64,000 nucleotides of DNA, from the NCBI GenBank assembly GCA_963777605.1, contig CAVZRV010000010.1, forward strand, positions 480,001 to 544,000, written 5' to 3'. This DNA comes from an uncultured Acidobacteriota bacterium (GTDB lineage: Bacteria; Acidobacteriota; UBA6911; RPQK01; JAPXNP01). A program made the translations under genes and the position numbers. Below, piece by piece: positions 7,222 through 61,102 of the stretch; the stretch's first letter is position 1; the number at the start of each line of letters is the position of its first letter. The notes beneath the pieces were generated by a model that was not told the DNA's origin, did not search any database, and was given only the letters and a program-made list of their open reading frames with translations.

Positions 7222-8355
7222 TCAACGCGGCCCCTCAGCCAGTTTGACCGCGTCCTGGGGCCATTCTCCGCCTCGGATAACCGGCCCATTGAGGCGGGAA
7301 GGATCCAGAACCACGTGCTTGATCCGCTGGCGCTTCCAGGTATAGGTAATGTGCACGAAACCGTCCTTCGCCTGGATCACCGCGGGGTAGGAGAACTCCT
7401 CTCCCGGCGTGTTCTCGAGTACCAGCACTGCCTTCCAGTTCTCGCCGTCGCTGCTGACCGCGACGTTCAGCATCTCCCGGTCGGAAGGATTCGGACCACC
7501 CCGAACGGTGTGGTTGTATACCAATACTCTCCGGCCGTCCGCCAGCGTGACTGCGTCGAAGCCTGCATTGGGGTTGGGGAGAACCGTGGGGCTAAGTTCC
7601 GACCAGGTCCTTCCCCCGTCGCGCGACCAGGCCTGCAGGATTTTCCCCTTGCCGTTGCGGTTGCGACACAGCATCTGGATCCGGTCAGGCCCGTAAGTGA
7701 GGAAGGTCGGCTGGATCGCGGCGACTTCCTTGCCATCGTTCAGGGGACCAGTCCGGACCCACTCCAGGCCCTGGTTGCCGGTCCACTCCAGGTGTATGCG
7801 CCATCCCTGGTCTTCCGTGCTCGCGCCGCAGAGGATCGGGCCGTCCGCCGGCTGGATCGGCTTGTTCTTGATCGGCCCCAGGATCCCTTCGGGCAACCGC
7901 CGCCCCGGAGACCAGGTGATGCCCCGGTCCTTGCTCAGGCTGACCAATCCCCACCACTGACGGGGATTGGGACCAACCTTGTAGAACAGCATCAATGGCC
8001 CGTCTTTGGGCCGGAACAGGACCGGATTCCAGCATGGGTAACGGTGTTGGCCGTCACCGGCCAGAGTGTACTGCACCCCGTCGGCCACCTCTACTGGCGC
8101 CGACCACTCTCCGCCGGTCAGTCGGGAAAGCCAGATACCCACGTTCGGTTCACCCTCCCCGTCGCCTCCAAACCAGGCGGCAGCGAACTGACCCGCGTCC
8201 GCCTCCACGATAGTGGAGGCATGACAACTTGCGAACGGAGCAGACTCAAATATGAACTCTGTCTTCACCACGCTTCCCGCAGAAAACCCCGAAGCCGGAA
8301 ATCCCGAGAACATACAAACCAGGCCCCACAACAGCATCGATCGAATTTCGTTCAT
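7222..8355 (-). CDS. Secreted BNR/Asp-box (sialidase-like) beta-propeller protein
   Basis: Own ATG at 8355 with signal peptide (MNEIRSMLLWGLVC...); CHASTI, WNPVL, GPIKNKP, Asp boxes SKDRGITW, SRDGGRTW, SSDGENW; FSYPAVI. Confidence 0.88.
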   Translation of the reverse strand: MNEIRSMLLWGLVCMFSGFPASGFSAGSVVKTEFIFESAPFASCHASTIVEADAGQFAAAWFGGDGEGEPNVGIWLSRLTGGEWSAPVEVADGVQYTLAGDGQHRYPCWNPVLFRPKDGPLMLFYKVGPNPRQWWGLVSLSKDRGITWSPGRRLPEGILGPIKNKPIQPADGPILCGASTEDQGWRIHLEWTGNQGLEWVRTGPLNDGKEVAAIQPTFLTYGPDRIQMLCRNRNGKGKILQAWSRDGGRTWSELSPTVLPNPNAGFDAVTLADGRRVLVYNHTVRGGPNPSDREMLNVAVSSDGENWKAVLVLENTPGEEFSYPAVIQAKDGFVHITYTWKRQRIKHVVLDPSRLNGPVIRGGEWPQDAVKLAEGPR

Positions 8356-8429
8356 CGGCCTGTTCCTCTCCAGACTACCCTTGCCAAAACTCATCGTCGT
8401 CGCATGTACTTTCAGTGTGAAACGAAGGC

Positions 8430-9645
8430 TCAGACTTCTCCGCCCGGCAGGGAGTCCAAATCGACTCTTCGCCCTTCGCTGGCGGCGAGGTAGGCCGCGT
8501 AAACCACTCTCACGACCTGAAGGCCCAACTGACCGTCGGTGAGCGGCTCCCGGTCCTGCGATCACGTCCTCCAGGAACGACCGACACATCCCCCAGTGCC
8601 CTGAAGTCCAATCCTCGTCAGGCATCGGAGTGGACCATCCGGCGCTGGTTTCCAGCTTCTCCAGCAGGTACTGCCCGCGAAATGTCTCGAGGGCCGGTGA
8701 ATATGCCTGAACCAGGTTGTTTGGACTCAGGTTGCAGACAAACCGCGCGTTGGAACCGAAAATTTCAATCCGGCTTTCCATCCCGCCGAGCATGGTGTCG
8801 GAAGCCCAGACCAGCCCCCGAGCCCCGTCTTCAAACGTAACAATCGCCGATCCCCAGTTCTCGACATCCTTCCAGCCCCGTGCAAACCAGACTTTTTCAC
8901 CCCGGTTCAGCGATTCGATCCGGCTCAAATCGCCGACTTCGGCGGTTACGGAAGCTGGCCTGATCGGCTTGCCGTCACGGATCTTTCCCTCCAGGGCCTT
9001 CAGGTAGATCATCGTGCCGACGGGGTGGGCTCCCAGCCTGAGCAGAGCCCCTCCACCCGTGTAGCGCCAGATCTTGGAGAACTGGGAGTGGGATCCGCTG
9101 TGGCACTCGCCCCCACGCATCTCGACGATCGTCCCGCCGCTTTGGCTCAAGAGGCCGGCCACTTTACGAACCGACGGTGCATAGAGCCAGTTCTCTCCGT
9201 ACATCAGTTTGATCCCTCCGGCCCGGGCAGCTTCGACCATTGCGGCTGCGTCACGCACCACCACGTCGAGCATGTGGCGCCGATCCTGGCTTGAGATATC
9301 TTCGTCGGTGCAGTCGGCCGGAAGGTCCTGCCCGACGTATGCAGTCAGCGGCTTGGTGCAGACGACGTGTTTTCCAGCGGCTGCCGCAGCTTCTGTCATC
9401 GGCCGGTGAAGGTGATTCGGTACGCAAAGGTCCACCAGTTGGATGTCCGGCATCTCCAGCAACTCGCGAAAGTCGGTCGTCCACTTGGGAATGCCATGCC
9501 GGGAGGAATACTCCCGCGCCCGCTCGTCCGACACGTCGGCGACCGCCCGAATCGGCTGCTCCAGGCCGCCCGCCTTGGCGTAGCATCGGGCCCGGGTCTC
9601 CGCCAGAAAGCCTGCTCCAATGATCCCAACTCCGATCTGCTTCAT
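8430..9645 (-). CDS. Gfo/Idh/MocA-family oxidoreductase (apparent +1 frameshift near 8556)
   Basis: IIGAGFLA Rossmann motif, PNHLH, CTKPL, GGGALL. The family-typical C-terminus DREPLTDGQLGLQVVRVVYAAYLAASEGRRV lies in the shifted frame, ending at TGA 8430-8432. Confidence 0.85.
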
Positions 9646-9874
9646 TGTTCGTTCCTCAGCTGTTGCCCACCGTTGAGCGTCCGGGGGTGATGCGGGCAGG
9701 CGTCAGGCACACCTCCCATCACACCGGGACGGAATTCGACTCGAAAACCGAGCTTCCCAAGAATACAATCAACAGTGATTTTTACAAACCATCGGACGGC
9801 GCGCCGGAAAGGTCTCGGCCCGGGGCGAAGAATTCCAGCGAATTGTATACTTTCCCGGACGAAGGGAGGCATCG

Positions 9875-10762
9875 TTGGAGATTCGAACAGCAGTCATACC
9901 AGTTGCGGGTTTGGGCACGCGGCTCTTGCCGGCAACGAAGTCCCAGCCGAAAGAGATGCTGCCGGTAGCCAAGAAACCGGTGGTTCAGTACGTCGTGGAG
10001 GAGATGGAGGCCAACGGCGTCAAACAGATTCTTCTGGTCACCGGTAAGAGCAAGACCTCAATCGAGAACCACTTCGACTTCGACCACGAACTGACCCGCC
10101 ACCTCCGGGAGAGCGGCAAGGAAGACCTGCTGCCCGAACTCGAGTACGAGCGCATGCGGCTCGAGTTCTTCTTCACCAGGCAGCGCAAGCAAAAAGGGCT
10201 GGGAGACGCCATCCTGTGCGCCCAGCATTTCACCCAGGACCACCCCTTCGTGGTTGCCCTCGGGGACAGCATTCTGGGGATCCATGGTTCCTCCCAGGTG
10301 GTCAGCCAAATGATCGAGACATTCGAGGAGCGCAACGCGGCGGCAGTCATCGCTATTGAGGAAGTTCCCCGGGACCAGGTTTCGTCCTACGGCGTCGTCA
10401 AGCCGGACGGCAAAGGCAACGTTTTTGTGATCGAAGACCTCGTCGAAAAGCCGGCCGTAGACGAGGCCCCGAGCAACCTCGCAATCGCGGCGCGATACGT
10501 CTTCTCCCCGGCCATCTACTCGGCCATCGCCCGCACCGAACCGGGCAAGAGCGGCGAAATCCAGCTGACCGATGCGGTGCGGCTCCTGATCGACGAGGGG
10601 CAGACCGTACTCGGCGTCCGGATACCCTCACACCAGAAGCGCTACGACATCGGCAACTTCCGAAGCTATTTCGAGGCGTTCATCGAGTTCGGGCTCGATG
10701 ATCCTGAACTGGGTCCGTACCTGCGCCGTTTCCTCGAGGCGAGACTACATGAAGATCATTGA
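9875..10762 (+). CDS. galU: UTP--sugar-1-phosphate uridylyltransferase (GalU family)
   Basis: AVIPVAGLGTRLLPATKSQPKEMLP, QKGLGDAI, VEKP, GEIQLTDA, YDIGN. Confidence 0.9.
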   Translation: MEIRTAVIPVAGLGTRLLPATKSQPKEMLPVAKKPVVQYVVEEMEANGVKQILLVTGKSKTSIENHFDFDHELTRHLRESGKEDLLPELEYERMRLEFFFTRQRKQKGLGDAILCAQHFTQDHPFVVALGDSILGIHGSSQVVSQMIETFEERNAAAVIAIEEVPRDQVSSYGVVKPDGKGNVFVIEDLVEKPAVDEAPSNLAIAARYVFSPAIYSAIARTEPGKSGEIQLTDAVRLLIDEGQTVLGVRIPSHQKRYDIGNFRSYFEAFIEFGLDDPELGPYLRRFLEARLHEDH

Positions 10763-11759
10763 GTCGATTGCCTTCGCGCGGGCGGGTTTACTGGGCAATC
10801 CGTCCGACGGGTACTTCGGAAAGACCATCTCACTCGCGTTCCAGAACTTCCGGGCGCGGATCGTCCTCTACGAGTGGCCCGAACTGGAGATCATTCTCAG
10901 CCGGCAGGACCGCTGTGAGTTCTCAGGCCTCGACGAGCTTGTCGAAGACGTCAAGCTCAACGGACTTTACGGCGGACTTCGCCTGATCAAGGCTGCCATC
11001 AAGGTCTTTGCCGAGTACTGCACCACCCACGAGATTGCGCTGCCCGATCACAACTTCGCGCTTCGCTACGAGACAGACATTCCGCGGCAGGTCGGCCTGG
11101 CCGGCTCGAGTGCCATCATCACGGCGGTAATCCGTGCCCTGACCCGCTTTTACGGTGTGGACATCAGCAAGCCTCACCTCGCCAACCTGATCCTCTCCGT
11201 CGAGACCCGGGAGATCGGGATCGCCGCGGGCTTGCAGGACCGCGTGACTCAGGTCTATCAGGGCCTGGTCTACATGGACTTCGCCCGGGAACACTTCGCA
11301 AAGCAAGGTTTCGGCAGTTACGAGATACTGAGGCCTCCGGTTCCGCCGGCATTCTATGTCGCTTATCGCCAGAACCTGAGCCAGATCTCCGGGGTCTATC
11401 ACAGCAACCTGAAGGAACGATGGGAATCGGGTGAACCGCAGGTGATCGGCGCCATGAACGAGTTCGCCAGGCTTGCCGAGGAAGGCAGAGCCGCCTTGAC
11501 AGAAGGCGACGTTCCGGCTTTTTCGCAGTTGATGGACCGCAACTTCGACCTCAGAAGAAGTCTCGTCCGACTCGATCCCATCAACATCGAGATCGTGGAG
11601 GCCGCCCGCAAGCTGGGTGTCTCGGCCAAGTATGCGGGGTCCGGTGGTTCGATCGTGGGCGTCTGCGCTGAACAGGACCGATTCGAGGCGCTGAGCCGCT
11701 CACTGGGGGACCTCGGCTGCGCGGTCTTCAGACCCACCCCGGCCCCTCCGCTGGAGTGA
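10749..11759 (+). CDS. GHMP kinase, glucuronokinase-like
   Basis: ARAGLLGNPSD.YFG.TIS, PRQVGLAGSSA (GHMP motif II), AGLQDRV.QVY.GLV.MDF, AGSGG; overlaps the galU stop. Confidence 0.85.
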   Translation: MKIIESIAFARAGLLGNPSDGYFGKTISLAFQNFRARIVLYEWPELEIILSRQDRCEFSGLDELVEDVKLNGLYGGLRLIKAAIKVFAEYCTTHEIALPDHNFALRYETDIPRQVGLAGSSAIITAVIRALTRFYGVDISKPHLANLILSVETREIGIAAGLQDRVTQVYQGLVYMDFAREHFAKQGFGSYEILRPPVPPAFYVAYRQNLSQISGVYHSNLKERWESGEPQVIGAMNEFARLAEEGRAALTEGDVPAFSQLMDRNFDLRRSLVRLDPINIEIVEAARKLGVSAKYAGSGGSIVGVCAEQDRFEALSRSLGDLGCAVFRPTPAPPLE

Positions 11760-12161: not shown

Positions 12162-15100
12162 TTAACCTCCGTTCACATTCGAATCAGGGGAAACTTTGAC
12201 GACCGAACCAAATCTTCGACCGGCCAGGAAGTAGAGTATCGGAACGGTCATTCGGGACAGCAGCAGCGAGGCGACCTCACCGGCCATCAAGGATATCGCC
12301 AACCCCTGGAAAATCGGGTCGAAAAGGATCACCGATGCACCCACTATAACAGCAGCGGCCGTCAACAGCATGGGGCGAAACCGGACGGCACCAGCGTCCA
12401 CGACGGCTTTGTCGAGAGGTACCCCTTCTCTCAGCCGCAGCTCTACGAAATCGACCAGAATGATCGAATTCCGCACCACGATTCCCGCACCCGCGATGAA
12501 ACCGATCATCGACGTCGCGGTAAAGAAGGCGCCCATGCCCCAGTGCGCGGGCAGAATGCCGACCAGAGAGAAGGGGATGGCAGCCATAATCACAAACGGC
12601 GTCAACAACGACTGGAACCACCCGACGACGAGAATGTAGATCAGCACCAGTACCGCCGCGAAGGCAATTCCAAGATCGCGGAACACTTCGTACGTGATGT
12701 GCCATTCACCGTCCCACTTCACAGCATACTGCTGAATCTCAAAGGGCTGCGCAGCCGTGTACTGGGCAACCTTGTACCCGGGCGGAAACCGCACCTTTTC
12801 GACGCTGTCGCTCAGCTTGAGGATGGCATACACGGGACTCTCCTCGGTGCCCGCGACGTCCCCGGTCACGTAGACGACCGGCTTCAGGTTCTTGTGATAA
12901 ATGCTCTGTTCGTTGACCGACTTCTCAAGCCGCACCAGTTCACCGAGAGGGACCTGCTGCCCCCCTTGGCCGGTCAGTCGGATTCCTTCGATGGCAGACA
13001 GGCTCGAACGGCGCTCCTTCGGGAGTCTGAGCAGGATCGAGACGTCCTCCTTCTCATGCGGATCGTGGAGCAGGCCGGCGCTCATTCCATCCACGGCCAG
13101 CCGAACGGTGGCGGTGATCTGTTCGACCGAGATTCCGCTCAGCGCCGCCTTCTCCTGGTTGACGTGGAAGATCAGTTTCTCCTGGTTGGCTTCGATGTAG
13201 GAATCGACATCGACTACGCCAGGGGTGTCCCGAAAGATGTCTTCGATCTGGCGGGCCAGTTCAATCTGCTTCGAATAGTCCGGGCCGTAGACCTCGGCCA
13301 CCAGGGTCTGGAGCACGGGCGGACCCGGCGGAACCTCGGCCACCTTGACGGCAGCTCCGTAGCGGGCCGCGATTTCCTGGATCGGTCCCCGGACCTCCTT
13401 GGCGATCGGGTGACTCTGCTGGTCCCGGTCCTCCTTGGGAGCGAGGTTCACCTGGATGTCGGCCTGGTTGGGCAGCCGGCGCAGGAAGTAGTGACGGACG
13501 AGTCCGTTGAAGTTGTACGGAGCCGACGTCCCCACGTAAGTCTGGAAGTTCATCACTGCCGGCACCGTCGCCAGGTAGCTGCCGATGTCATGAGTGACCG
13601 CTGCGGTATCTTCGAGGGTCGTACCCTCGGGCATATCGATCACAACCTGGAATTCACTCTTGTTGTCGAAGGGCAGCATCTTGACCGTGACCAACTTGAA
13701 CGCAACCATCGAAAGTGCCCCGATAAGCAGGACCACCACCCCGATCAGGAAGCTGTAGCGTATCATCGGGACGTGGATCAGCCGGCCCATCACCTGGCGG
13801 TACATCCGCGTGCTCAATCCCTCCTCGTCGCGGTGTCCATCGTCCCCGTCTTCGTGTCGCTTGAGCAGTCGAACGGAGGCCCACGGAGTCACCATGAACG
13901 CCACCAGGAGAGAAAACAGCATCGCTGCCGATGCCCCCACCGGAATCGGCCTCATGTAGGGACCCATCAACCCGCGGACGAATGCCATCGGGATGATCGC
14001 GGCGATGACAGCGAATGTCGCCAGGATGGTCGGGTTCCCGACCTCGTCCACCGCCTCCGTTGCGACTTCCAGGATCGGTCTGCCCCGGTTTCCGGGCAGC
14101 CGGTAGTGACGGACGATGTTTTCGACGACCACGATGGCGTCATCGACCAGAATACCGATTGAGAAGATAAGAGCGAAAAGCGTCACGCGGTTGAGCGTAT
14201 AGCCAAGAAAGTAGAAGACGACCAAGGTCAGGGCCAGGGTCACCGGAATGGCGATCGCGACAATTCCCGACTCGCGGAAACCGAGAGTCAACCAGATGAG
14301 GATGGTGACCGAGAGAATCGCCAGAAACATGTGGAAAAGCAGTTCATCCGATTTCTCTTCGGCGGTCGCCCCATAGTTCCGGGAAATCGTCATCTGGATA
14401 TCTTCCGGGACAAGCCTGCCGCGCTGGTCCTCAAGCTTCCGAATGACATTGTCCGCGACGTTAATGGCGTTGGTTCCCTTCCGCTTGGCTACCGAGATGG
14501 TCACTGCGGGGTAGGTACTTCCGACAACCCCTTGCTCGCCCCCATCCTCGATTCCGGCAGGCGCCCCAACTTCGTTCGGAGATCCGGGTTCGGCCCCGAT
14601 GCTTTCCGTGAATTTCGCGGCCGGGCCCTCCCCGAAGAGGACATAGTTGGAGAGCTCTTCCGGGCCGTCCACGACCTGAGCGATTTCGCGCAGGTAGACC
14701 GGACGGTTCGTGAAGACCGCCACGACCAGGTTCCGGACGTCATCCGATGTCCTCAGGAAGCCTCCCGTCTCAACCAGCACCTCCCGGTTCTCGGCCGAGA
14801 AGTTCCCTGACTGCATCTGCTTGTTCGACTGACCGAGGACCTTCATCACCCAGGCAGGCGAAACGTTGAGGGCTGCCATCCGGTTGACATCGAAGAGCAC
14901 CCTCACCTGCCGCCGTTGTCCGCCGATCAAGGTAACTTCTGAAACATCGTCCACCTGCTTGATCGAGTCATCGAGCTGTGCGGCGACTCTCCGCAGCATG
15001 TAGTGATCCTGCGTCTTGCTCCACAGTGTGATGCCAAGAATCGGGACGTCGTCGATCGATCGCGGCTTCACAAGGGGCGGGCTGGCGCCCGGCGGGATCA

Positions 15101-15470
15101 GATCGAAGTTCGCGTACATCTTCTGATTGAGCCGGACTATGGCCTTTTCCTCATCTTCACCAACCAGGAACCGGACGATCGCCATCGACGAACCCGGACT
15201 CGAAGTTGAGTAGATGTACTCCACCCCGGGAATCTCCCAGAGGAGCTTCTCCATCGGACGGGTGACCCGCTCCTCAACCTCTTTTGCGCTCGCTCCAGGC
15301 ATCTGCACGAAGACGTCGATCATTGGGACGATAATCTGCGGCTCTTCCTCGCGCGGCAGCATGAGCACCGCCCCAATTCCAAGGAGGATGGAGGCGGCAA
15401 CGATCAAGGGCGTCAACTTCGAGTCGATGAACGCGTGAGCGACTTTGCCTGCTAACCCTATGTTCTTCAT
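12162..15470 (-). CDS. RND efflux transporter permease (AcrB/AcrD/AcrF family)
   Basis: 1102 aa; [45 protein letters not shown]. Confidence 0.95.
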
Positions 15471-15506
15471 TCTGTACTCCCGGCAAGCCCGTCCCGGACT
15501 GGGCCT

Positions 15507-16787
15507 TTAACACTCCACTCCGAGTTCGTGCACAAAGGAATCCGACTGCCCGAAACCGGGCATCACCCCAAGGCCCGCCCCGGGGAGATTGGCCGAAATC
15601 GTGACCGCGGACCCGTCGCGCAGCTCATGCGAAGGTTCGATCACGACCCGATCGCCCTGCGCCACCCCGGCCAGTACTTCGATCCGGCCGTCCAGGCTGC
15701 GTCCAGTCTTGATCAGGCGAAACCGGGCGTGGTTCTCGGGCCCCACCACGTAAAGCCCGACCAACTGGCCTCGCCGAATGACGGCCGACTCAGGAACGGT
15801 CAGCATCGCCTCGCCGGGAGCCGGGAAGAAAGCCGTGCCATACATTCCGGAGTGCAGTCCGGCAAGCGGTTCCAACCGGATTTTGACGACAAAGGAACGA
15901 CTGGCGGGATCGGCCCGCGGATCGATTTCCCGCACTGTGCCCGGAAACTGCTGGCCCAGAGAGCTGACATTGACCGTGACCTCGGCACCCACCTGAACCG
16001 CCGGGACCCGGCTCTCCGAGACCACGGCCTCGAGCTGATAGTCGGCCGGATCCTCAATCGTCAGCAGCAGCATGCCCGGCGACGCCAGTTGGCCGATCTC
16101 GACCTGTCTTGTCGAAACCACTCCCGCGTAAGGCGCCGACACCGTGCAGTAGCCCACAAACAGATTGGCTTGATCGAGCATGGCCTCGGCCTGACGAATC
16201 TTCGACTCGACCTGGCCCTTCTTGGCCCGTACCGACTCGAGCATGTCTTCGGCCTGGCGGAGTTGCGCCTGGGCGCCCTGGTTTCTGGCCGATACCTCGT
16301 CGAATTCCTGCTGGCTGACCGACTTCCGCTCGAGCAGGGTCTTATACCGGTCAAAGGTTGACTGCGCCAGCGTGGCGTTGGCGGCAGCGGCTTCCTTGCC
16401 CGATTCCGCAGCCAGGATCGCCTTTCCCACCTCGTTCAGGGCCTGGCGGGCCTCTTCCAAGCCGGCTTCGGCCTGCGCGACCTGGGCACGGGCGTCGCGG
16501 GGGTCGATTTCGAGCAGCAACTGCCCTTTCGACACGCGATCCCCTTCGCGGACCCGTACAGAGGTGACATACCCCATGACCTTGGCGGAAATCGGCGTGA
16601 CGGTCTTCGACTCAACCGTCCCGGTGGCCTCGAACCCGGCCGCCTGGGTGGTGCTCTCAACCTGACCGACTCGAACCGAGACGGGTGGCCCCTCCGGAAT
16701 TTCAGCTTGCCGCTCCGTGCCGCTGGAACACTGAGTCATGGTCAAAGCCGAAGCCAAGGCTAATGTAATGAATAGGTTGCGAATCAT
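15507..16787 (-). CDS. RND efflux periplasmic adaptor (membrane fusion protein), probable lipoprotein
   Basis: Lipoprotein-like N-terminus (..TQC), lipoyl halves VREGDRVSKGQLL and APYAGVV, coiled coil, DPASRSF, GMYG. Confidence 0.93.
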   Translation of the reverse strand: MIRNLFITLALASALTMTQCSSGTERQAEIPEGPPVSVRVGQVESTTQAAGFEATGTVESKTVTPISAKVMGYVTSVRVREGDRVSKGQLLLEIDPRDARAQVAQAEAGLEEARQALNEVGKAILAAESGKEAAAANATLAQSTFDRYKTLLERKSVSQQEFDEVSARNQGAQAQLRQAEDMLESVRAKKGQVESKIRQAEAMLDQANLFVGYCTVSAPYAGVVSTRQVEIGQLASPGMLLLTIEDPADYQLEAVVSESRVPAVQVGAEVTVNVSSLGQQFPGTVREIDPRADPASRSFVVKIRLEPLAGLHSGMYGTAFFPAPGEAMLTVPESAVIRRGQLVGLYVVGPENHARFRLIKTGRSLDGRIEVLAGVAQGDRVVIEPSHELRDGSAVTISANLPGAGLGVMPGFGQSDSFVHELGVEC

Positions 16788-16807
16788 GGTTTCGATCCTC
16801 GCCACGT

Positions 16808-18184
16808 TTAATTTGAAAATTGCGAGACTTCGTTGAGGGAACCTGTGCTGAGCAGGATTCCCGCATAGTTCAGGTAATGTTCATAGCGGGCGCCCAGAAC
16901 ATTGAAACGGGCGCTGAGCAACGCTGTCTGGGCCCGGAGGACCTCGGTGACCGTCGTCAGACCGACGTTCTGACGGTCTTCCACAATGCGCAGGGCCTCC
17001 ACGGCCTGGTCTACCGCGGCCGCCGCAAACTGAAGCCGTTGACGCGAGCTCAAATAGCCCTGGTAGGCCTTGACGACCTCGAGTCGGATCTGGTTCCCGA
17101 CCCTCTCTTTTTCAGCGCCGGCCGCCCTTTCCGCTGCCACGGCCTGCCGGATGCGGGACGTGCGTCCCATGTCGACAATGTCGAAATTGAGGCTGGCTCC
17201 AACCGCAAAATCACCGCTGCCGTTGGAAAGGTCCTGGGTGCTGTTGGCCGCCTGGGCAAACAGGTTCAGGTTGGGATACCACTGTCCTTTGCTCTTGCGG
17301 ACCTCTTCCTGGGCGAGGTCAACCTGGCGCTGCGCGTTAGTGTAGTCCGGACGCATCTGAAGTGCCCGGTTGATCAAGCCGGACTGTTCGGGTTCCGGGA
17401 ACTGTCGCTCGTCAAGGCTTCCGGCAAGCTCTTGGGGCGCGTCGATAGGAAGAGCCAGGACCGTGTTCAAGCCCGCCCGGGCGGTTTCGACATCTCCTCG
17501 TGCCTGCACCAGCTGCTGCTGAAAATCAGCCAGCTGGACCTGCATCGACAGAAGGTCCGAGGTGACCGCGACACCCGTCTCGACCTTCGCACGGATACTC
17601 TCAACCTGGGATTCCGCCGTGCGGACCGCTTCTTCCGCTACCGCCTGGCGTTGCCGGGCAAGGATCAGCCCGTAATAGGCCTGAATGACATGCAACCGAA
17701 TCTGCTGCCGGGCCCAGTCATCATCGGCACCGGCCTGTCCTCCCCTGATTTCCGCCTGCCTGATCCCGGAACTGACCTGAAACCGGTTGAAGACCGGAAG
17801 CTTCAGGTTCAACGATGACCTGAAATTGGAGATCGAAGGAGGGTGGTTCAAGTAGTTCGGATCAAAGTTGGCGGGACCAAACCGGCCCTGCTCGAGGAGG
17901 GACCCGAACACGAAGACAGGGTTGTTGCTGTTGGTGTAGGTCTCACTGAAACTCAGCATGGGATAGCGACCCGACTTGGCCTCGCTCAATTGCGCCGACG
18001 CGACGTCGATGCCGGCTTCCGTTGCTTTGAGCATCGGGTTGTTCTGCAAAGCGAGGTTCACCGCCTGGTCCAAGGTCAGGCCACCCGCTTGCTGAGAGAC
18101 TTCTGCCGCTTCCGGCTGGCCGCTTAAACCTGTGGCCAGCAAAACGGCAAAGACGAATTTCGGGATTCTGCTCGTTCTGCTCAT
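16808..18184 (-). CDS. TolC-family outer membrane efflux protein
   Basis: Signal peptide, LTLDQAVNLALQNNP, two OEP repeats; first gene of the RND operon. Confidence 0.9.
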   Translation of the reverse strand: MSRTSRIPKFVFAVLLATGLSGQPEAAEVSQQAGGLTLDQAVNLALQNNPMLKATEAGIDVASAQLSEAKSGRYPMLSFSETYTNSNNPVFVFGSLLEQGRFGPANFDPNYLNHPPSISNFRSSLNLKLPVFNRFQVSSGIRQAEIRGGQAGADDDWARQQIRLHVIQAYYGLILARQRQAVAEEAVRTAESQVESIRAKVETGVAVTSDLLSMQVQLADFQQQLVQARGDVETARAGLNTVLALPIDAPQELAGSLDERQFPEPEQSGLINRALQMRPDYTNAQRQVDLAQEEVRKSKGQWYPNLNLFAQAANSTQDLSNGSGDFAVGASLNFDIVDMGRTSRIRQAVAAERAAGAEKERVGNQIRLEVVKAYQGYLSSRQRLQFAAAAVDQAVEALRIVEDRQNVGLTTVTEVLRAQTALLSARFNVLGARYEHYLNYAGILLSTGSLNEVSQFSN

Positions 18185-18477
18185 AACGATCACTGCTCGG
18201 GTTATTTGTTGACTGCAAGAAACCCCAGAGAGGCGCACCCCGGGTCGCCGTTCAAGCCGATCGACCCGCAATACCTTTCGCCAAGAATCTAGCGCACGCC
18301 CTGTAGATTCTTAACAAAAGTCAAAGATGTCATATCCGCTCCAAAGGATTCGACATTCAAGGGTGGAAAAGTCCACAATCTTTATTCCAAACCGATGAGA
18401 CGCAAACCGCAAGTCGAAATCCACATTTCTCGCCGAACTCCGGTCCAATCGTCCAACTCAGTGAAGGGACGTCGTTT

Positions 18478-57775: not shown

Positions 57776-58054
57776 GGCGGGTCTCCTTTCAGAGAACGAG
57801 TCGTTACTTCCCTGTTTACCACCGTAGACGCCGCGAGACAATTCCCCCGCCGGATCCCGTACCGATGCCGGCCCGGACCGAGTTCACGAAGTCGGACACC
57901 GGTTCGTGGACGTGCTCAATCACGGAGCCTCTCCAGATCTCCGCCCGGCATTGTCGCGCAGAAAGCCATCGAACTCGGTGCTGCTTGTACCCGCATCCCA
58001 CTTTCGGGAAAATGGGCAGAGCCGACTTGACGGCTCCGACCACAAGAGGTGCCA

Positions 58055-59419
58055 ATGGGGTTTCTTGACGAAAACTATCTGCTGAGCTCTTCTGCCGCGC
58101 GGGACCTGTACTCCATGGTCAAAGATCTGCCGATCGTTGACCCGCACAACCACGCCGACGTGGAGGAGATCGTTCTCAACCGCAACTGGATCGACATCTG
58201 GCAGGTCGAGGGGGCCACGGACCACTACGTCTGGGAGTTGATGCGGCGCCGGGGCGTTGCGGAAGAGAACATTACCGGGACAGGATCCAACCTGGAGAAG
58301 TGGAGGGCTCTCGCCTCCCGGTTTCCGGAGTTTACGGGCAATCCCACCTACGAGTGGATCCACCTGGACCTGCGCCGCCGGTTCGGTCTTTCCGACACGA
58401 TTTCGGGAGCAACCGCCGACCGCATTTGGGAAGCCGCCGCCGCCCGACTCGCGACAAGAGAGATGCGACCGCAAGCGGTCCTGAGGGAGATGAAGGTCGA
58501 GATCATGTGCACGACCGACGATCCTACCCTCGACCTTGGGCTGCACGAACGAGCCCGAACCGAGATCGCCGACGTCCGGATCCTTCCCACCTGGAGGCCC
58601 GACAAGGCGATGAACCTCCGCTTGCCACGTTGGAAGCCGTTCGTAGAAGGGCTCTGCGCCGAAGCCGGTGTCGGCGCCTCGACCCTTTCCGGCCTGGAAC
58701 AGGCGCTGGCGGCCAGTCATCACTACTTCGGCCGCATGGGCTGCGTGGCCAGCGATCATGGGCTGACCACTCCGGCCGCTCACCATGTCCGCCGTGAAGT
58801 AGCCGCCCACCTCTACGCACGGGCAATCGGCGGCGAGAGCATTGACTCCGAGATGGCGGGTGATTTCCAGGCCTACATGCTTCACTTCTTCGCCCGGCTG
58901 AACCGTGATGCGGGGTGGGTCACGCAGTTGCACATCGGCCCCGTCCGCGACTACCGGGACTCGCTTTGGAAGTCTTTGGGCCCCGATTCCGGCGGCGACA
59001 TCTCGACCCAGAGTATTGACCTGGTGCCGGGACTGCACCACTTGCTGAACGAGTTCGACGGGAGCATGAAGATCGTCCTTTACGTCGTTGATCCCACCCA
59101 CTGGCCGACCCTGGCGACCCTGGCAAGAGCATTTCCGAATGTCTCCCTCGGCTCAGCCTGGTGGTTCAACGACAGCCCTTTCGGGATGGAAACCCAGCTC
59201 AAGTACCTCGCCACTGTTGACCTGCTCGCCAACCATGCCGGAATGGTCACGGATTCCAGGAAACTCCTGTCATTCGGGTCGCGAACCGAGATGTTTCGAC
59301 GCGTGCTTTGTCAGGTGGTCGGAGAAATGGTCGAGAAAGGGCAGGTTCCTGATGCACCGGCCGAGTGGCTGGTCAAACAGCTTTCGTACAATCGGCCCCG
59401 GGAGCTCTTCTTCGGCTGA
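58055..59419 (+). CDS. uxaC: Uronate (glucuronate) isomerase
   Basis: PIVDPHNH, DHYVW..MR, GNPTYEW.H, CTTDDP, WRPDK, SDHG, QLHIG, AWWFND, MVTDSR.LLS...R.E.FRR. Confidence 0.95.
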   Translation: MGFLDENYLLSSSAARDLYSMVKDLPIVDPHNHADVEEIVLNRNWIDIWQVEGATDHYVWELMRRRGVAEENITGTGSNLEKWRALASRFPEFTGNPTYEWIHLDLRRRFGLSDTISGATADRIWEAAAARLATREMRPQAVLREMKVEIMCTTDDPTLDLGLHERARTEIADVRILPTWRPDKAMNLRLPRWKPFVEGLCAEAGVGASTLSGLEQALAASHHYFGRMGCVASDHGLTTPAAHHVRREVAAHLYARAIGGESIDSEMAGDFQAYMLHFFARLNRDAGWVTQLHIGPVRDYRDSLWKSLGPDSGGDISTQSIDLVPGLHHLLNEFDGSMKIVLYVVDPTHWPTLATLARAFPNVSLGSAWWFNDSPFGMETQLKYLATVDLLANHAGMVTDSRKLLSFGSRTEMFRRVLCQVVGEMVEKGQVPDAPAEWLVKQLSYNRPRELFFG

Positions 59420-59544
59420 TTCTCCAAGGAGGCAGCACGGACTTGCAGACCATACTCCGCCTGCAACGTCCCACTGCCCACAATCTGGCTTTATCCGCCG
59501 GCCTTCAAGCCGAGCCAACGACGACAATATCGAGAACTGAGCCA

Positions 59545-61102
59545 ATGACTGAAATTCTGAACAGTTCAAGCCTTCAAGGCCCCTTCAAAACGAATCTGGT
59601 CCCATTTCTGGTTGCGCCGGACCGTCCGATCCAGGTTTACGCCCGCTCAATCCACCGCCTGGGCGCAAACCGGGCTTTTATTATCAGAGACAAGAGCGGC
59701 CGCCGGCTCGCCATCCTCGAAGACAAACCCGGTCAACGTGCGTCCGGCTCATTCGAACGCGAAGAGGTGTTTGACCTGCCCGGTAGCGCAAAGCTGAACC
59801 TGGGTCCGCTGTCTCGACAGAACGCCGCTTTCCTCCGGGAGCACTTCCCCTGGACGGCACCGCGTCTTTCGCCGGCAGGGCCTTCCTTCGGGCTCGGCGA
59901 CCGGCTCGGGTTGGCCGGTCCAGCCCACGTTCGTGCGGTCAGTGGCACCTCCCTTTTCCCGATTCTGGCCCAGCAGTCGATCCGGGAACTGGAGCGAACC
60001 CATAGAACGCCGCAGGAGGTCGTCGATTGTGCCACAGTCTCCGCCTTTCAAGAGGACCTGCAAAGTGGATTCGGTGCCGATGCCGACCACCTTAAGTCAA
60101 CCCGGGACATCGACCGGGTCAGCGGCGCCGGGTTCGGCTGGTACACGCTCGATCCCGGCGAGCACGTCGTCAATGAAGCCGACCACATGAGCCCGACCGA
60201 GTTGAAGAGCCGCGCGGAAGACCTGGACTGGAGTCGTCTGGGCAGGTCGATCGAGTCAGTCCGCGCCGATTATTCAGGGAAGACCTTCACGATCTCGGAT
60301 TCCTTCCAGTTGAGCCCGTCGGACGACGAGATCTGGAGGGCATGGGTAAAGTACGGCCGGGTGATCCGCCACGTCCATGAACTGCACGATCACCTCGAAA
60401 AGTGTTTCAGGAAAGACCGCTTCGAACTCGAACTGTCGGTCGATGAAACCGACTCGGTGACCAGCCCATTCGAGCATTTTCTGGTGGTCTCTGAACTGAA
60501 GAGGTTGGGCGTCCGAATCGACAGCATCGCGCCCCGCTTTGTGGGCAGATTTGAAAAGGGTGTCGATTTTCGCGGCGACCAGGACGAATTTGAGCGTCAA
60601 CTGGAACGCCACGTGGCGGTCTCCCGGAAGCTGGGCCCCTACAAGCTGAGTCTGCACTCCGGTAGCGACAAGTTCAGCATTTACCCGGCCTTCGCGCGAA
60701 ACTGCGGTAAGTACACCCATGTCAAAACAGCCGGCACCAGCTACCTGGAGGGCCTGCGCGCGATGACGGAGCTGGATCTGGCCCTGTTCAAGGAGATCCT
60801 CGACTTCTCCCGGGCTTGTTATCCGTCCGCCAAGGCCAGCTACCACGTCTCTGCCGAACTTGCCAACGTTCCCGAGGCTAGCCGCCGTGGACAGTGCGTC
60901 AGGGGCACGCCTTTTCGAGGCCAATGATGACGCCCGCCAGGTCTTGCACGTCGCCTACGGAGATGTTCTGTGCGCCGAACTCCCGGACGGTCGAAGCCGT
61001 TTTCGAGAGCGGCTCCTGCAGGCCCTCGACGCCGGAGAGGAAGTCCACTTCCGCTGTCTCGAGGCCCATTTCGAGAGGCACTTTTCGCAATTACGAGGCT
61101 GA
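59545..61102 (+). CDS. uxaE: Tagaturonate/fructuronate epimerase (apparent +1 frameshift near 60880)
   Basis: SFGLGDRLGLA, AQQS.RE..RT.R, GADADHLK, ELSVDET, FEKGVD, KLSLHSGSDKF, HVKTAGTSYLE. DDARQVLHVAYG lies in the shifted frame. Confidence 0.9.

What the first reader, a model, noticed from the sequence alone, without database searches (positions are those of the whole stretch)
9875..11759. GalU-like uridylyltransferase overlapping a plant-type glucuronokinase: candidate bacterial UDP-glucuronate salvage pathway
Seen: a two-gene unit with a 14-nt overlap. The kinase has ARAGLLGNPSDGYFGKTIS, YGGLRL, NF.L.Y.T.IPRQ.GL.GSSA, AGLQDRV.QVY.GLV.MDF..EH, LAEEGR.AL and M..NFD.RR. From memory these follow plant glucuronokinase (GlcAK) along its whole length, rather than GalK, HddA or mevalonate kinase. 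Known: plants make UDP-GlcA from GlcA via glucuronokinase plus UDP-sugar pyrophosphorylase, some animals have a fused kinase/pyrophosphorylase, and bacteria normally use UDP-glucose dehydrogenase. Inference: this GalU paralog may accept GlcA-1-phosphate, giving a two-step salvage route that I do not know to be characterised in bacteria. uxaC-uxaE in the same window shows the organism handles hexuronates.
Basis: partly seen in the sequence, partly recalled or inferred. Interest (0 to 1): 0.72.

Follow-up and report, generated by a model that had tools for sequence, protein, structure and literature searches.

The report
Bacterial glucuronate kinase–GalU salvage gene pair

Summary
A GalU-family gene (9875-10762) overlaps by 14 nt a GHMP kinase gene (10749-11759). 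The kinase is 45% identical to plant glucuronokinase 1 and 44% to the fish enzyme's kinase domain; its best match to any other kinase family is far weaker (E 4e-13).

The pair recurs in many phyla in two gene orders and as one fused protein. In a 61-genome Verrucomicrobiota sample the same 16 genomes carry both genes and 45 carry neither. None of 122 kinase-adjacent GalUs keeps the glucose-coordinating Asp (Ser/Thr in 117); 50 of 62 GalUs from kinase-less genomes keep it.

One correction: this is not a GalU paralogue. It is the genome's only GalU homologue, as in 27 of 30 genomes checked, and it belongs to a clade separate from the ordinary GalU of related genomes. It may therefore make both UDP-glucose and UDP-glucuronate.

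Bacterial homologues of the kinase were noted in 2009, and automatic annotation already names them glucuronokinase. This scan reached the same reading on at least six other genomes. I found no biochemical test in bacteria. It is a moderately interesting new variant of a known pathway.

The parts
9741..9769 (+). sigma-70-like promoter match (TCGAAA-17-TACAAT) in the 229-nt divergent intergenic region
   Evidence: one match found against 0.5 expected from shuffles. This is weak evidence and the site is only a candidate.
9864..9869 (+). Shine-Dalgarno-like GGGAGG, 5 nt upstream of the TTG start of the GalU-type gene
   Evidence: Read directly from the sequence.
9875..10762 (+). GalU-family UTP:sugar-1-phosphate uridylyltransferase, 295 aa, of the kinase-linked 'type A' clade. 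Predicted to act on GlcA-1-P and probably also on Glc-1-P.
   Evidence: TIGR01099 307.5 bits, below the 326.8 cut-off. PF00483. 233 bits to B. subtilis YngB. 43% identity to E. coli GalU. Only GalU homologue in the genome. Falls in the linked clade. Carries Ser132 and Asp111 in place of the canonical Asp and His.
10749..10762 (+). 14-nt overlap of the GalU stop with the kinase start, suggesting translational coupling
   Evidence: The same or a similar overlap (alignment gaps of -7 or -10) is seen in most related loci.
10749..11759 (+). Glucuronokinase-family GHMP sugar-1-kinase, 336 aa
   Evidence: GHMP N and C domains. 45% identity to plant GlcAK1, E 4e-85. 44% identity to the fish GKUP kinase domain, E 4e-97. 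JGI names its homologues glucuronokinase. Of 66 columns invariant in eight bacterial members, 54 are identical in the plant enzyme and 58 in the fish enzyme.

Best explanation
A two-gene, translationally coupled operon for the direct activation of free D-glucuronic acid.

Step 1 (inferred from homology): the GHMP kinase phosphorylates GlcA at C1 with ATP, giving alpha-GlcA-1-phosphate.

Step 2 (inferred from gene linkage, co-occurrence, a natural fusion and an altered sugar pocket): the GalU-family enzyme condenses GlcA-1-P with UTP to UDP-glucuronate and pyrophosphate.

This GalU is the genome's only GalU homologue. It belongs to a clade that stands in place of the ordinary GalU wherever it occurs. 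It therefore probably also keeps the UDP-glucose pyrophosphorylase activity, which would make it a GalU-type UDP-sugar pyrophosphorylase with two substrates.

The UDP-GlcA would feed uronic-acid-containing envelope or exopolysaccharide synthesis. The route would compete with the isomerase catabolic route (uxaC/uxaE) encoded 47 kb away.
For: Kinase identity.
- 45% identity to plant glucuronokinase 1 and 44% over 99% of its length to the fish kinase domain.
- The zebrafish member used only GlcA among nine sugars tested, GalA included (PMC3938481, passages read).
- 44 of the 66 columns invariant in eight GalU-associated bacterial kinases are identical in all four eukaryotic sequences compared, including GNPSD, PR..G..GSSA and GLQDR.

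Linkage.
- 53 of 54 loci found with the kinase alone carry a GalU gene beside it; the remaining locus could not be tested.
- 62 of 78 loci from a wider scan do so: 34 with galU upstream and 28 with galU downstream.
- No other flanking gene family recurs in more than 9 of 55 loci.

Co-occurrence.
- In 61 Verrucomicrobiota genomes the 16 with the kinase are exactly the 16 with a GalU, adjacent in 14 of them. The other 45 have neither.

Fusion.
- A 633-aa Pirellulaceae protein joins a GalU domain (44% identical to this one, E 3e-73) to the kinase.

A distinct transferase.
- 53 of 54 linked GalUs form one clade (SH-aLRT 90), apart from the GalUs of kinase-less genomes of the same order.
- This GalU is 71% and 61% identical to linked GalUs of Planctomycetota and Abditibacteriota, but only 41-48% identical to unlinked GalUs of its own order.

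Sugar pocket.
- The Asp that coordinates glucose in YngB (D134) and PaUGP (D131) (PMC7961091, PMC11796359, passages) is Ser/Thr in 117 of 122 kinase-adjacent GalUs and never Asp.
- It is Asp in 50 of 62 GalUs from kinase-less genomes.
- The change is found in both gene-order lineages.

Sole GalU.
- In 27 of 30 genomes with an adjacent or fused pair, the linked GalU is the only GalU hit.
Against: - No enzyme of this bacterial pair has been assayed, so both substrates are inferred.
- Loss of the Asp is not diagnostic. E. coli and Klebsiella GalU carry Val there and are true UDP-glucose enzymes (PMC11796359), and 5 of 62 GalUs from kinase-less genomes carry Thr.
- The second signature, His to Asp in GLGHA, adds a negative charge near the pocket. 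That is not what one would predict for binding a carboxylate.
- The two GalU lineages amount to only about two or three independent events, so the residue statistics overstate the support.
- Type B linked GalUs score above NCBI's galU equivalog cut-off and may be plain UDP-glucose enzymes.
- Two kinase-bearing Acidobacteriota genomes (G161, G166) carry only a canonical GalU, with His and Asp, located elsewhere. Two others (G162, G163) show no GalU at all.
- No GlcA transporter, glucuronidase or myo-inositol oxygenase is linked to the pair.
- The zebrafish transferase domain never showed activity in vitro (PMC3938481), so there is no positive precedent for a short nucleotidyltransferase acting on GlcA-1-P.
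Confidence: 0.6

Rival explanations
1. The architecture is the same (an anomeric sugar kinase plus its cognate UDP-sugar pyrophosphorylase), but the bacterial enzymes act on another sugar, for example galacturonate, glucose, galactose or a pentose.
For: Linkage, co-occurrence and fusion say only that the kinase product feeds the transferase. They do not say which sugar. The altered residue probably sits near O4/C6; this placement is inferred from the alignment to RmlA and from recalled RmlA structures. A change there would also fit a C4 epimer. Type B GalUs pass the galU equivalog cut-off. The His-to-Asp change does not favour an acidic sugar.
Against: Identity to two characterised GlcA-specific enzymes is 44-45% over the full length, and their motifs are conserved. 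The zebrafish enzyme rejects GalA, Glc, Gal, Xyl, Ara, Fuc, Man and Rha. According to the same paper, plant GalA kinase is very different in sequence.
Confidence: 0.22
2. The GalU is simply the housekeeping UDP-glucose pyrophosphorylase. The kinase is co-transcribed for regulatory or historical reasons, and its product is used by some other enzyme.
For: It is the only GalU homologue in the genome. All catalytic and nucleotide-binding residues are intact. It is 43% identical to E. coli GalU.
Against: In the Verrucomicrobiota sample a GalU never occurs without the kinase: 16 genomes have both and 45 have neither. A housekeeping enzyme fed by phosphoglucomutase would not show that pattern. A natural fusion exists. 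The linked GalUs form their own clade with a changed sugar-contact residue. PMC3938481 states that no other pathway using GlcA-1-P is known.
Confidence: 0.12
3. An HddA/HddC-type pair, that is, a heptose-7-phosphate kinase plus a heptose-1-phosphate nucleotidyltransferase for NDP-heptose synthesis.
For: That pathway has the same two protein families side by side. The best solved-structure hit of the kinase is a heptose phosphate kinase (3k85). The ESM Atlas automatic names read 'D,D-heptose 7-phosphate kinase family'.
Against: The HddA model scores 39.8 bits against a cut-off of 600, and the HddC model 35.4 against 300. The 3k85 match is only 52 bits, against 249-288 bits to glucuronokinases. 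The transferase is of GalU type at 307 bits. No gene family beyond the pair recurs beside it, so no gmhA/gmhB partner is apparent; those two families were not searched for by name.
Confidence: 0.02

Closest known systems
Plant salvage / myo-inositol oxygenation route: glucuronokinase (Arabidopsis GlcAK1, At3g01640, EC 2.7.1.43) followed by UDP-sugar pyrophosphorylase USP (PMC2823444)
   Same: The same two chemical steps are predicted: GlcA to GlcA-1-P to UDP-GlcA. The kinase is a clear homologue, 45% identical to a plant GlcAK1. PMC2823444 already placed sequences from Solibacter, Dyadobacter and Verrucomicrobium in the GlcAK tree.
   Different: The second enzyme is unrelated. Plants use a ~600-aa UDPGP-family USP of broad specificity, encoded elsewhere in the genome. 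Here it is a 295-aa GalU-family (PF00483) enzyme that overlaps the kinase gene. No MIOX match was found, but that search rang in none of its 14 control genomes either, so it shows nothing.
Zebrafish DrGKUP, a bifunctional glucuronokinase / putative UDP-glucuronate pyrophosphorylase (PMC3938481)
   Same: [quoted passage not shown] The kinase domain is 44% identical in a close Danio relative (P0159).
   Different: Its N-terminal domain is not of GalU type: pairwise E is 0.07 against this GalU, and it shows no meaningful tblastn hit in the bacterial loci. Its pyrophosphorylase activity could not be shown in vitro. A true GalU::kinase fusion does exist in a Pirellulaceae genome.
Bacterial UDP-glucose pyrophosphorylase GalU / GtaB / YngB (TIGR01099; PDB 7B1R, 2E3D, 3JUK)
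   Same: Full-length homology: 233 bits to YngB and 43% identity to E. coli GalU. The following are conserved: the GxGTR loop, the Lys-Glu of PKEMLP, Gln103, the Mg-binding Asp131, Glu191-Lys192 and Tyr208.
   Different: It scores below the curated equivalog cut-off (307.5 against 326.8). It forms a separate clade tied to the kinase. The glucose-coordinating Asp is replaced by Ser132, the His of GLGHA by Asp111 and Asp33 by Lys, and there is a two-residue insertion with Glu/Gln next to the position that aligns with RmlA W224.
Other bacterial 'anomeric kinase + dedicated nucleotidyltransferase' salvage pairs: AmgK-MurU for MurNAc and Fkp for fucose (recalled, not tested here)
   Same: The logic is the same: a free sugar is phosphorylated at C1 and then activated by an RmlA/GalU-fold transferase, bypassing de novo synthesis. 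The MurU model gives a weak match to this GalU (35.6 bits).
   Different: The kinase families, the sugars and the nucleotides differ. None of these pairs yields UDP-GlcA.

Membership tests
Glucuronokinase (EC 2.7.1.43; plant GlcAK / animal GKUP kinase domain) | GHMP kinase fold with N- and C-terminal GHMP domains | tested here: met
   PF00288 at 2.4e-14 and PF08544 at 1.3e-07.
Glucuronokinase (EC 2.7.1.43; plant GlcAK / animal GKUP kinase domain) | Full-length sequence homology to characterised members, closer than to any other GHMP kinase family | tested here: met
   Plant GlcAK1: 45% identity, E 4e-85. Fish: 44% identity, E 4e-97, 99% coverage. Best other family: 52 bits in PDB and 47 bits in NCBIfam. 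The six eukaryote rows sit on one side of a branch within the family tree.
Glucuronokinase (EC 2.7.1.43; plant GlcAK / animal GKUP kinase domain) | Conservation of the family's invariant motifs (GNPSD, IPRQxGLxGSSA, GLQDRV, NFDLRR, GSGG) | tested here: met
   Of 66 columns invariant in eight bacterial members, 54 are identical in the plant, 58 in the fish and 44 in all four eukaryotes compared.
Glucuronokinase (EC 2.7.1.43; plant GlcAK / animal GKUP kinase domain) | ATP-dependent phosphorylation of D-glucuronate at C1, with specificity for GlcA | not testable with these tools
   Needs an enzyme assay. No solved GlcAK structure appeared among the 14 matches of the sequence search, so the pocket could not be compared.
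GalU, UTP--glucose-1-phosphate uridylyltransferase (TIGR01099 equivalog) | Score above the curated equivalog cut-off | tested here: not met
   307.5 bits against a cut-off of 326.8. Kinase-less genomes of the same order score 337-369 bits (G015, G076, G112, G124, G136).
GalU, UTP--glucose-1-phosphate uridylyltransferase (TIGR01099 equivalog) | Catalytic and nucleotide/phosphate-binding residues: GxGTR Arg, Lys-Glu of PKEMLP, Gln, Mg-binding Asp, Glu-Lys of VEKP | tested here: met
   Alignments to YngB and to E. coli GalU and RfbA. The roles of the residues are taken from PMC7961091 and PMC11796359 (passages).
GalU, UTP--glucose-1-phosphate uridylyltransferase (TIGR01099 equivalog) | Asp side chain coordinating the glucose moiety (YngB D134 / PaUGP D131) | tested here: not met
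   Ser132 in this protein. None of 122 kinase-adjacent GalUs has Asp, against 50 of 62 GalUs from kinase-less genomes. This feature is not universal: functional Klebsiella and E. coli GalU carry Val.
GalU, UTP--glucose-1-phosphate uridylyltransferase (TIGR01099 equivalog) | UDP-glucose synthesis from Glc-1-P and UTP | not testable with these tools
   Considered likely because it is the only GalU homologue in the genome. Not assayed.
UDP-sugar pyrophosphorylase USP (UDPGP family, PF01704) | UDPGP-family fold of about 600 aa | tested here: not met
   The Pfam scan gives PF00483, PF12804 and PF01128 only, with no PF01704. The protein may work like a USP but is not a member of that family.
Animal GKUP N-terminal pyrophosphorylase domain | Sequence homology to the GKUP N-terminal domain | tested here: not met
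   Pairwise E of 0.07 over 68 residues. Only two marginal tblastn hits (E about 1e-4) across the bacterial loci.
HddA / HddC heptose pathway | Match to the HddA and HddC equivalog models | tested here: not met
   39.8 bits against a cut-off of 600, and 35.4 against 300.

The most novel reading that the evidence does not exclude
The kinase-linked GalU clade is a true dual-substrate UDP-glucose/UDP-glucuronate pyrophosphorylase that has displaced the ordinary GalU. In genomes such as this one, where no clear UDP-glucose 6-dehydrogenase is found, the pair is the main or only source of UDP-glucuronate. Such bacteria would then build their uronic-acid envelope polymers from glucuronate scavenged from plant, algal or animal glycans. 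The pair would also provide the first sequence-defined, dedicated glucuronate-1-phosphate uridylyltransferase (EC 2.7.7.44, listed as an orphan activity in a 2007 survey, PMC1940265).
Probability: 0.2. Interest if true: 0.7.

Novelty: new variant of a known kind. Interest (0 to 1): 0.5.

Why it matters
UDP-glucuronate is the donor for uronic-acid polysaccharides and the precursor of UDP-xylose, UDP-galacturonate and UDP-arabinosamine. In bacteria it is taught as coming only from UDP-glucose dehydrogenase.

A direct kinase/pyrophosphorylase route present in at least 591 species genomes (Acidobacteriota, Planctomycetota, Verrucomicrobiota, Bacteroidota and others) would change three things:
- how carbon from glucuronoxylan, ulvan, glycosaminoglycans and similar glycans is traced into bacterial envelopes;
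- how these genes are annotated, since they are now called 'GHMP kinase' and 'GalU';
- the enzymes available for one-pot UDP-GlcA synthesis, by adding compact bacterial ones.

It would also supply an active model for the transferase step that could not be demonstrated with the zebrafish fused enzyme.

Tried and rejected
- HddA/HddC reading: rejected on scores.
- Orthology of this GalU to the fish GKUP N-terminal domain: rejected.
- Conserved neighbours beyond the pair: none found. The best flanking cluster occurs in 9 of 55 loci. ORF picking in this high-GC DNA was crude.
- The upstream divergent genes are a sodium:solute symporter and a Gfo/Idh/MocA + BNR_2 reading frame. The latter is shared with only 8 loci. 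I do not count either as part of the unit.
- Myo-inositol oxygenase search of the own genome: no hit, but the control rang in none of 14 genomes, so nothing can be concluded.
- Terminator scan: 3 sites found against 2.7 expected, none placed after the operon.
- RNA evidence: no RNA holder listed.
- ESM Atlas: it gave only automatic names, one cluster having Streptophyta as the commonest taxon. Used as a lead only.
- Discriminating Ugd from other nucleotide-sugar dehydrogenases: unresolved.
- No structure prediction, fold search or complex prediction was run, because the tools return no ligand coordinates and the report does not claim that the two proteins bind.
- Acidobacteriota family f11 kinases (39-42% identical): they follow a symporter gene, lack a GalU, and differ at 17 of the 66 invariant columns, including GLQDR to GPMDR. 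I treat them as a possibly different specificity and left them out of the pair statistics.
Full report
THE OBSERVATION

The window lies in a 6.7-Mb, 96.7%-complete genome (G000, contig C10). Its closest relatives carry Acidobacteriota titles.

One search shows a 295-aa ORF at 9875..10762 (+) and a second ORF ending at 11759 (+). The kinase starts at the ATG at 10749, 14 nt before the stop of the first gene. Shine-Dalgarno-like sequences precede both starts. The upstream gene (7222-9645) is divergent and the downstream gene (12162-15470) is convergent, so the pair stands alone as a two-gene unit.

WHAT THE TWO PROTEINS ARE

Gene 1 is a full-length GalU-family nucleotidyltransferase.
- PF00483 at 1.5e-33.
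- TIGR01099 at 307.5 bits, just under the curated cut-off of 326.8.
- 233 bits to B. subtilis YngB, with sixteen solved GalU/UGPase chains matching at E 1e-47 or better.
- 43% identical to E. coli GalU.

Gene 2 is a GHMP kinase with no NCBIfam equivalog. Its best model is mevalonate kinase at 47 bits against a cut-off of 163. Its best solved relative scores 52 bits.

Against the 5.8-billion-protein collection its relatives number at least 8000 at E <= 0.001. Many carry the JGI name 'glucuronokinase'. Longer relatives are the fish and other animal 'glucuronokinase with putative uridyl pyrophosphorylase' proteins, 43-48% identical over 93-100% of the query.

I obtained a plant sequence through tools. 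A representative search with the fish protein returned P0295, which names glucuronokinase 1 of Ziziphus jujuba (XP_015879050.2). The window kinase matches it at 45% identity, E 4e-85, over residues 4-308. The match to a Danio GKUP kinase domain is 44%, E 4e-97.

Of 66 alignment columns invariant in eight GalU-associated bacterial kinases from several phyla, 54 are identical in the plant, 58 in the fish, 60 in a sea cucumber and 49 in a green alga. Forty-four are identical in all four.

The zebrafish kinase accepted only GlcA among nine monosaccharides, and GalA was not accepted (PMC3938481, passages). The Arabidopsis enzyme is likewise described as GlcA-specific (PMC2823444, abstract passage).

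IS THE PAIRING CONSERVED?

Using the kinase alone as bait, 54 loci were fetched from one-genome-per-species contigs.
- 52 have a GalU gene immediately upstream on the same strand.
- One, from Bacteroidales, has it immediately downstream.
- One has too little upstream DNA to tell.

Of the 78 new loci, five are places already seen in the first set.
- 34 have galU upstream.
- 28 have galU downstream. In two of these the gap is about 0.5 kb.
- 16 have no GalU within the flank held.

Beyond the pair, no flanking gene family recurs in more than 9 of 55 loci.

Two architectures emerge.
- Type A (galU then kinase): Acidobacteriota, Pirellulales/Planctomycetaceae, Abditibacteriota, Sumerlaeota and two Actinomycetota.
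- Type B (kinase then galU): Verrucomicrobiota, Kiritimatiellia, Phycisphaerae, Bacteroidales, Lentisphaerae and Leptospirales.

A third form is a fusion. P0201 (633 aa) has an N-terminal domain 44% identical to this GalU (E 3e-73) and a C-terminal kinase domain 46% identical to the window kinase. It is encoded as one frame in a Pirellulaceae genome.

The animal fusion is only an analogue. Its N-terminal domain does not match this GalU (E 0.07).

CO-OCCURRENCE ACROSS GENOMES

In an even sample of 61 genomes from the phylum of a type B carrier (Verrucomicrobiota by its record title), 16 have the kinase at E <= 1e-30 and 16 have a GalU at E <= 1e-40.
- They are the same 16 genomes.
- The two genes are adjacent in 14 of them.
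- The other 45 genomes have neither.

Related genomes are not independent, and no completeness figures were given for this sample. Even so, a GalU that never occurs without the kinase is not behaving as a housekeeping enzyme.

In 151 genomes of the window's own phylum the picture differs. A GalU is found in 122 and the kinase in 9. These tallies include two unpublished genomes, G049 and G024. I use no sequence or score from them.

In all six genomes of that sample with a close kinase (G000, G033, G100, G088, G148, G016), the adjacent GalU is the only or best GalU. It scores 277-307 bits. Kinase-less genomes of the same order score 337-369 bits.

A CORRECTION: THIS IS NOT A PARALOGUE

The own genome has a single GalU homologue. 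The next nucleotidyltransferase scores 41 bits by profile and 26% identity by tblastn.

Across 30 genomes with an adjacent or fused pair, the linked GalU is the only GalU-family hit in 27. Three genomes (G016, G160, G175) have a further, much weaker hit. The thresholds used ranged from 1e-20 to 1e-40.

A tree of 95 GalU sequences (quick IQ-TREE, LG+G4) puts 53 of the 54 linked GalUs in one clade with SH-aLRT 90. That clade includes the Actinomycetota, Abditibacteriota and Planctomycetota members. It is separate from the GalUs of kinase-less Acidobacteriota, including five genomes of the window's own order, which form their own clade at 98.

Identities agree. This GalU is 71% and 61% identical to the linked GalUs of a planctomycete and an Abditibacterium. 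It is 41-48% identical to unlinked GalUs of its own order.

So the kinase travels with its own kind of GalU, which stands in place of the ordinary one. This suggests, by inference only, that the linked enzyme still makes UDP-glucose.

THE SUGAR POCKET

I compared 53 linked with 35 other GalUs. I then compared 193 distinct GalU sequences out of 208. Three loci from unpublished genomes, L225, L227 and L236, were dropped. The tally of 40 of 61 genomes includes those three genomes.

The clearest differences concern residues 132 and 111.

Position 132 aligns with YngB Asp134 and PaUGP Asp131. These are described as contacting the glucose moiety, next to the Mg-binding Asp (PMC7961091 and PMC11796359, passages).

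| GalU group | n | Residue at position 132 |
|---|---|---|
| galU then kinase, adjacent | 82 | Ser 77, Thr 3, Ala 1, Cys 1 |
| kinase then galU, adjacent | 40 | Thr 37, Ala 2, Cys 1 |
| non-adjacent, kinase-bearing genomes | 8 | Ser 3, Thr 3, Asp 2 |
| kinase-less genomes (Acidobacteriota, Actinomycetota) | 62 | Asp 50, Thr 5, Val 3, Ile 2, Glu 1, Asn 1 |
| E. coli | 1 | Val |

Position 111 is the His of GLGHA. It is Asp in 106 of the 122 adjacent GalUs and His in 58 of the 62 from kinase-less genomes.

An alignment to E. coli RfbA places positions 111, 132 and 254 within one or two residues of RmlA L89, the Mg-binding Asp and W224. A review says that mutating L89 and W224 widens sugar-1-phosphate tolerance (PMC9415975, one passage).

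Removing a carboxylate beside the sugar's C4/C6 edge is what one would expect if the enzyme must accept a uronate. Three cautions apply.
- The exact contact is inferred.
- Asp is dispensable in enterobacterial GalU.
- The His-to-Asp change is not explained by this idea.

THE REST OF THE GENOME

uxaC and uxaE are in the window, so free hexuronate is also catabolised.

Only one nucleotide-sugar dehydrogenase is found (TIGR03026, 433 bits).
- It is 26% identical to E. coli Ugd.
- It scores higher on UDP-ManNAc dehydrogenase models (279 and 261 bits) than on UDP-glucose dehydrogenase models (173, 144 and 54 bits). All are below their cut-offs.
- It sits next to an SDR epimerase/dehydratase.

A de novo route to UDP-GlcA is therefore neither shown nor excluded.

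EXCEPTIONS

- Two Acidobacteriota genomes with the kinase have only a canonical GalU, located elsewhere (G161, G166).
- Two genomes show no GalU (G162, G163).
- Two have only a weak GalU-family match in the genome search, 145 and 171 bits (G167, G170). At their signature positions these resemble the ~650-aa-frame GalU-like proteins described under things noticed in passing.
- Three planctomycete genomes and one Lentisphaerales genome keep the Ser/Thr type of GalU at a distance from the kinase.
- A more distant kinase group in one acidobacterial family follows a symporter gene and lacks a GalU.

WHAT IS KNOWN AND WHAT IS NEW

PMC2823444 (passages read) states that glucuronokinase genes occur in 'a few bacteria' and lists three. 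PMC3938481 (passages read) treats bacterial nucleotidyltransferases as stand-alone proteins and does not mention the gene pair.

Seven library searches found no paper that characterises a bacterial glucuronokinase or a GalU-type GlcA-1-P uridylyltransferase. Subscription journals and supplements are outside this library. EC 2.7.7.44 appears in the table of a 2007 survey of orphan enzyme activities (PMC1940265, one passage).

Earlier agents of this scan reported the same pair and the same reading on at least six other genomes. My tests agree with them.

VERDICT

The salvage reading is the best supported one, at about 0.6 for GlcA specifically and about 0.85 for 'a sugar-1-kinase feeding its own GalU-type UDP-sugar pyrophosphorylase'.

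It is a new variant of a known pathway. The kinase is a new member of a known family. The transferase is a distinct GalU subfamily whose predicted activity has not been described.

Noticed in passing
window 7222-9645 (-): One 807-aa open frame joins a Gfo/Idh/MocA oxidoreductase (residues 4-302) to a BNR_2 sialidase-like domain (485-766). Between them lie an Arg-rich stretch and what looks like a signal peptide (MNEIRSMLLWGLVCMF...). It may be two genes merged by a frameshift, or a real fusion. A related frame occurs in 8 of 55 loci.
   Followed up: partly
window 58049-59419 (+) and 59365-60927 (+): A uxaC glucuronate isomerase (472 bits) overlaps a UxaE tagaturonate epimerase (415 bits). This is hexuronate catabolism, 47 kb from the pair.
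   Followed up: partly
G000:C27:47250-48476 (locus L005): The genome's only nucleotide-sugar dehydrogenase scores higher on UDP-ManNAc dehydrogenase models than on UDP-glucose dehydrogenase models, all below their cut-offs. An SDR epimerase/dehydratase gene lies next to it.
   Followed up: partly
L066:1501-2466, L067:1501-2409, L068 (Acidobacteriota family f11): A more distant branch of the kinase (39-42% identical) directly follows a sodium:solute symporter gene, in genomes with no GalU at E <= 1e-40. It has GPMDR in place of GLQDR and lacks Arg113, so its substrate may differ.
   Followed up: partly
L194, L198, L199, L205 (G160, G164, G165, G169): A second, very divergent GalU-like protein lies in open frames of about 650-700 aa. 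It has the motifs EGFGHA and LLGDH and scores about 180-190 bits on TIGR01099. It recurs in Planctomycetota and Lentisphaerae genomes. Its function and its extra domain were not examined.
   Followed up: no
window 12162-18271 (-): Downstream and convergent to the pair lie three genes that look like an RND efflux system: a 1102-aa transporter-like ORF, a 432-aa ORF, and an outer-membrane factor. Only the last was confirmed (PF02321, 207 bits).
   Followed up: partly
G178:C6:406861-407856: In one Verrucomicrobiota genome the kinase match contains an in-frame TAG and its GalU lies on another contig. This may be a decaying copy or a sequencing error.
   Followed up: no
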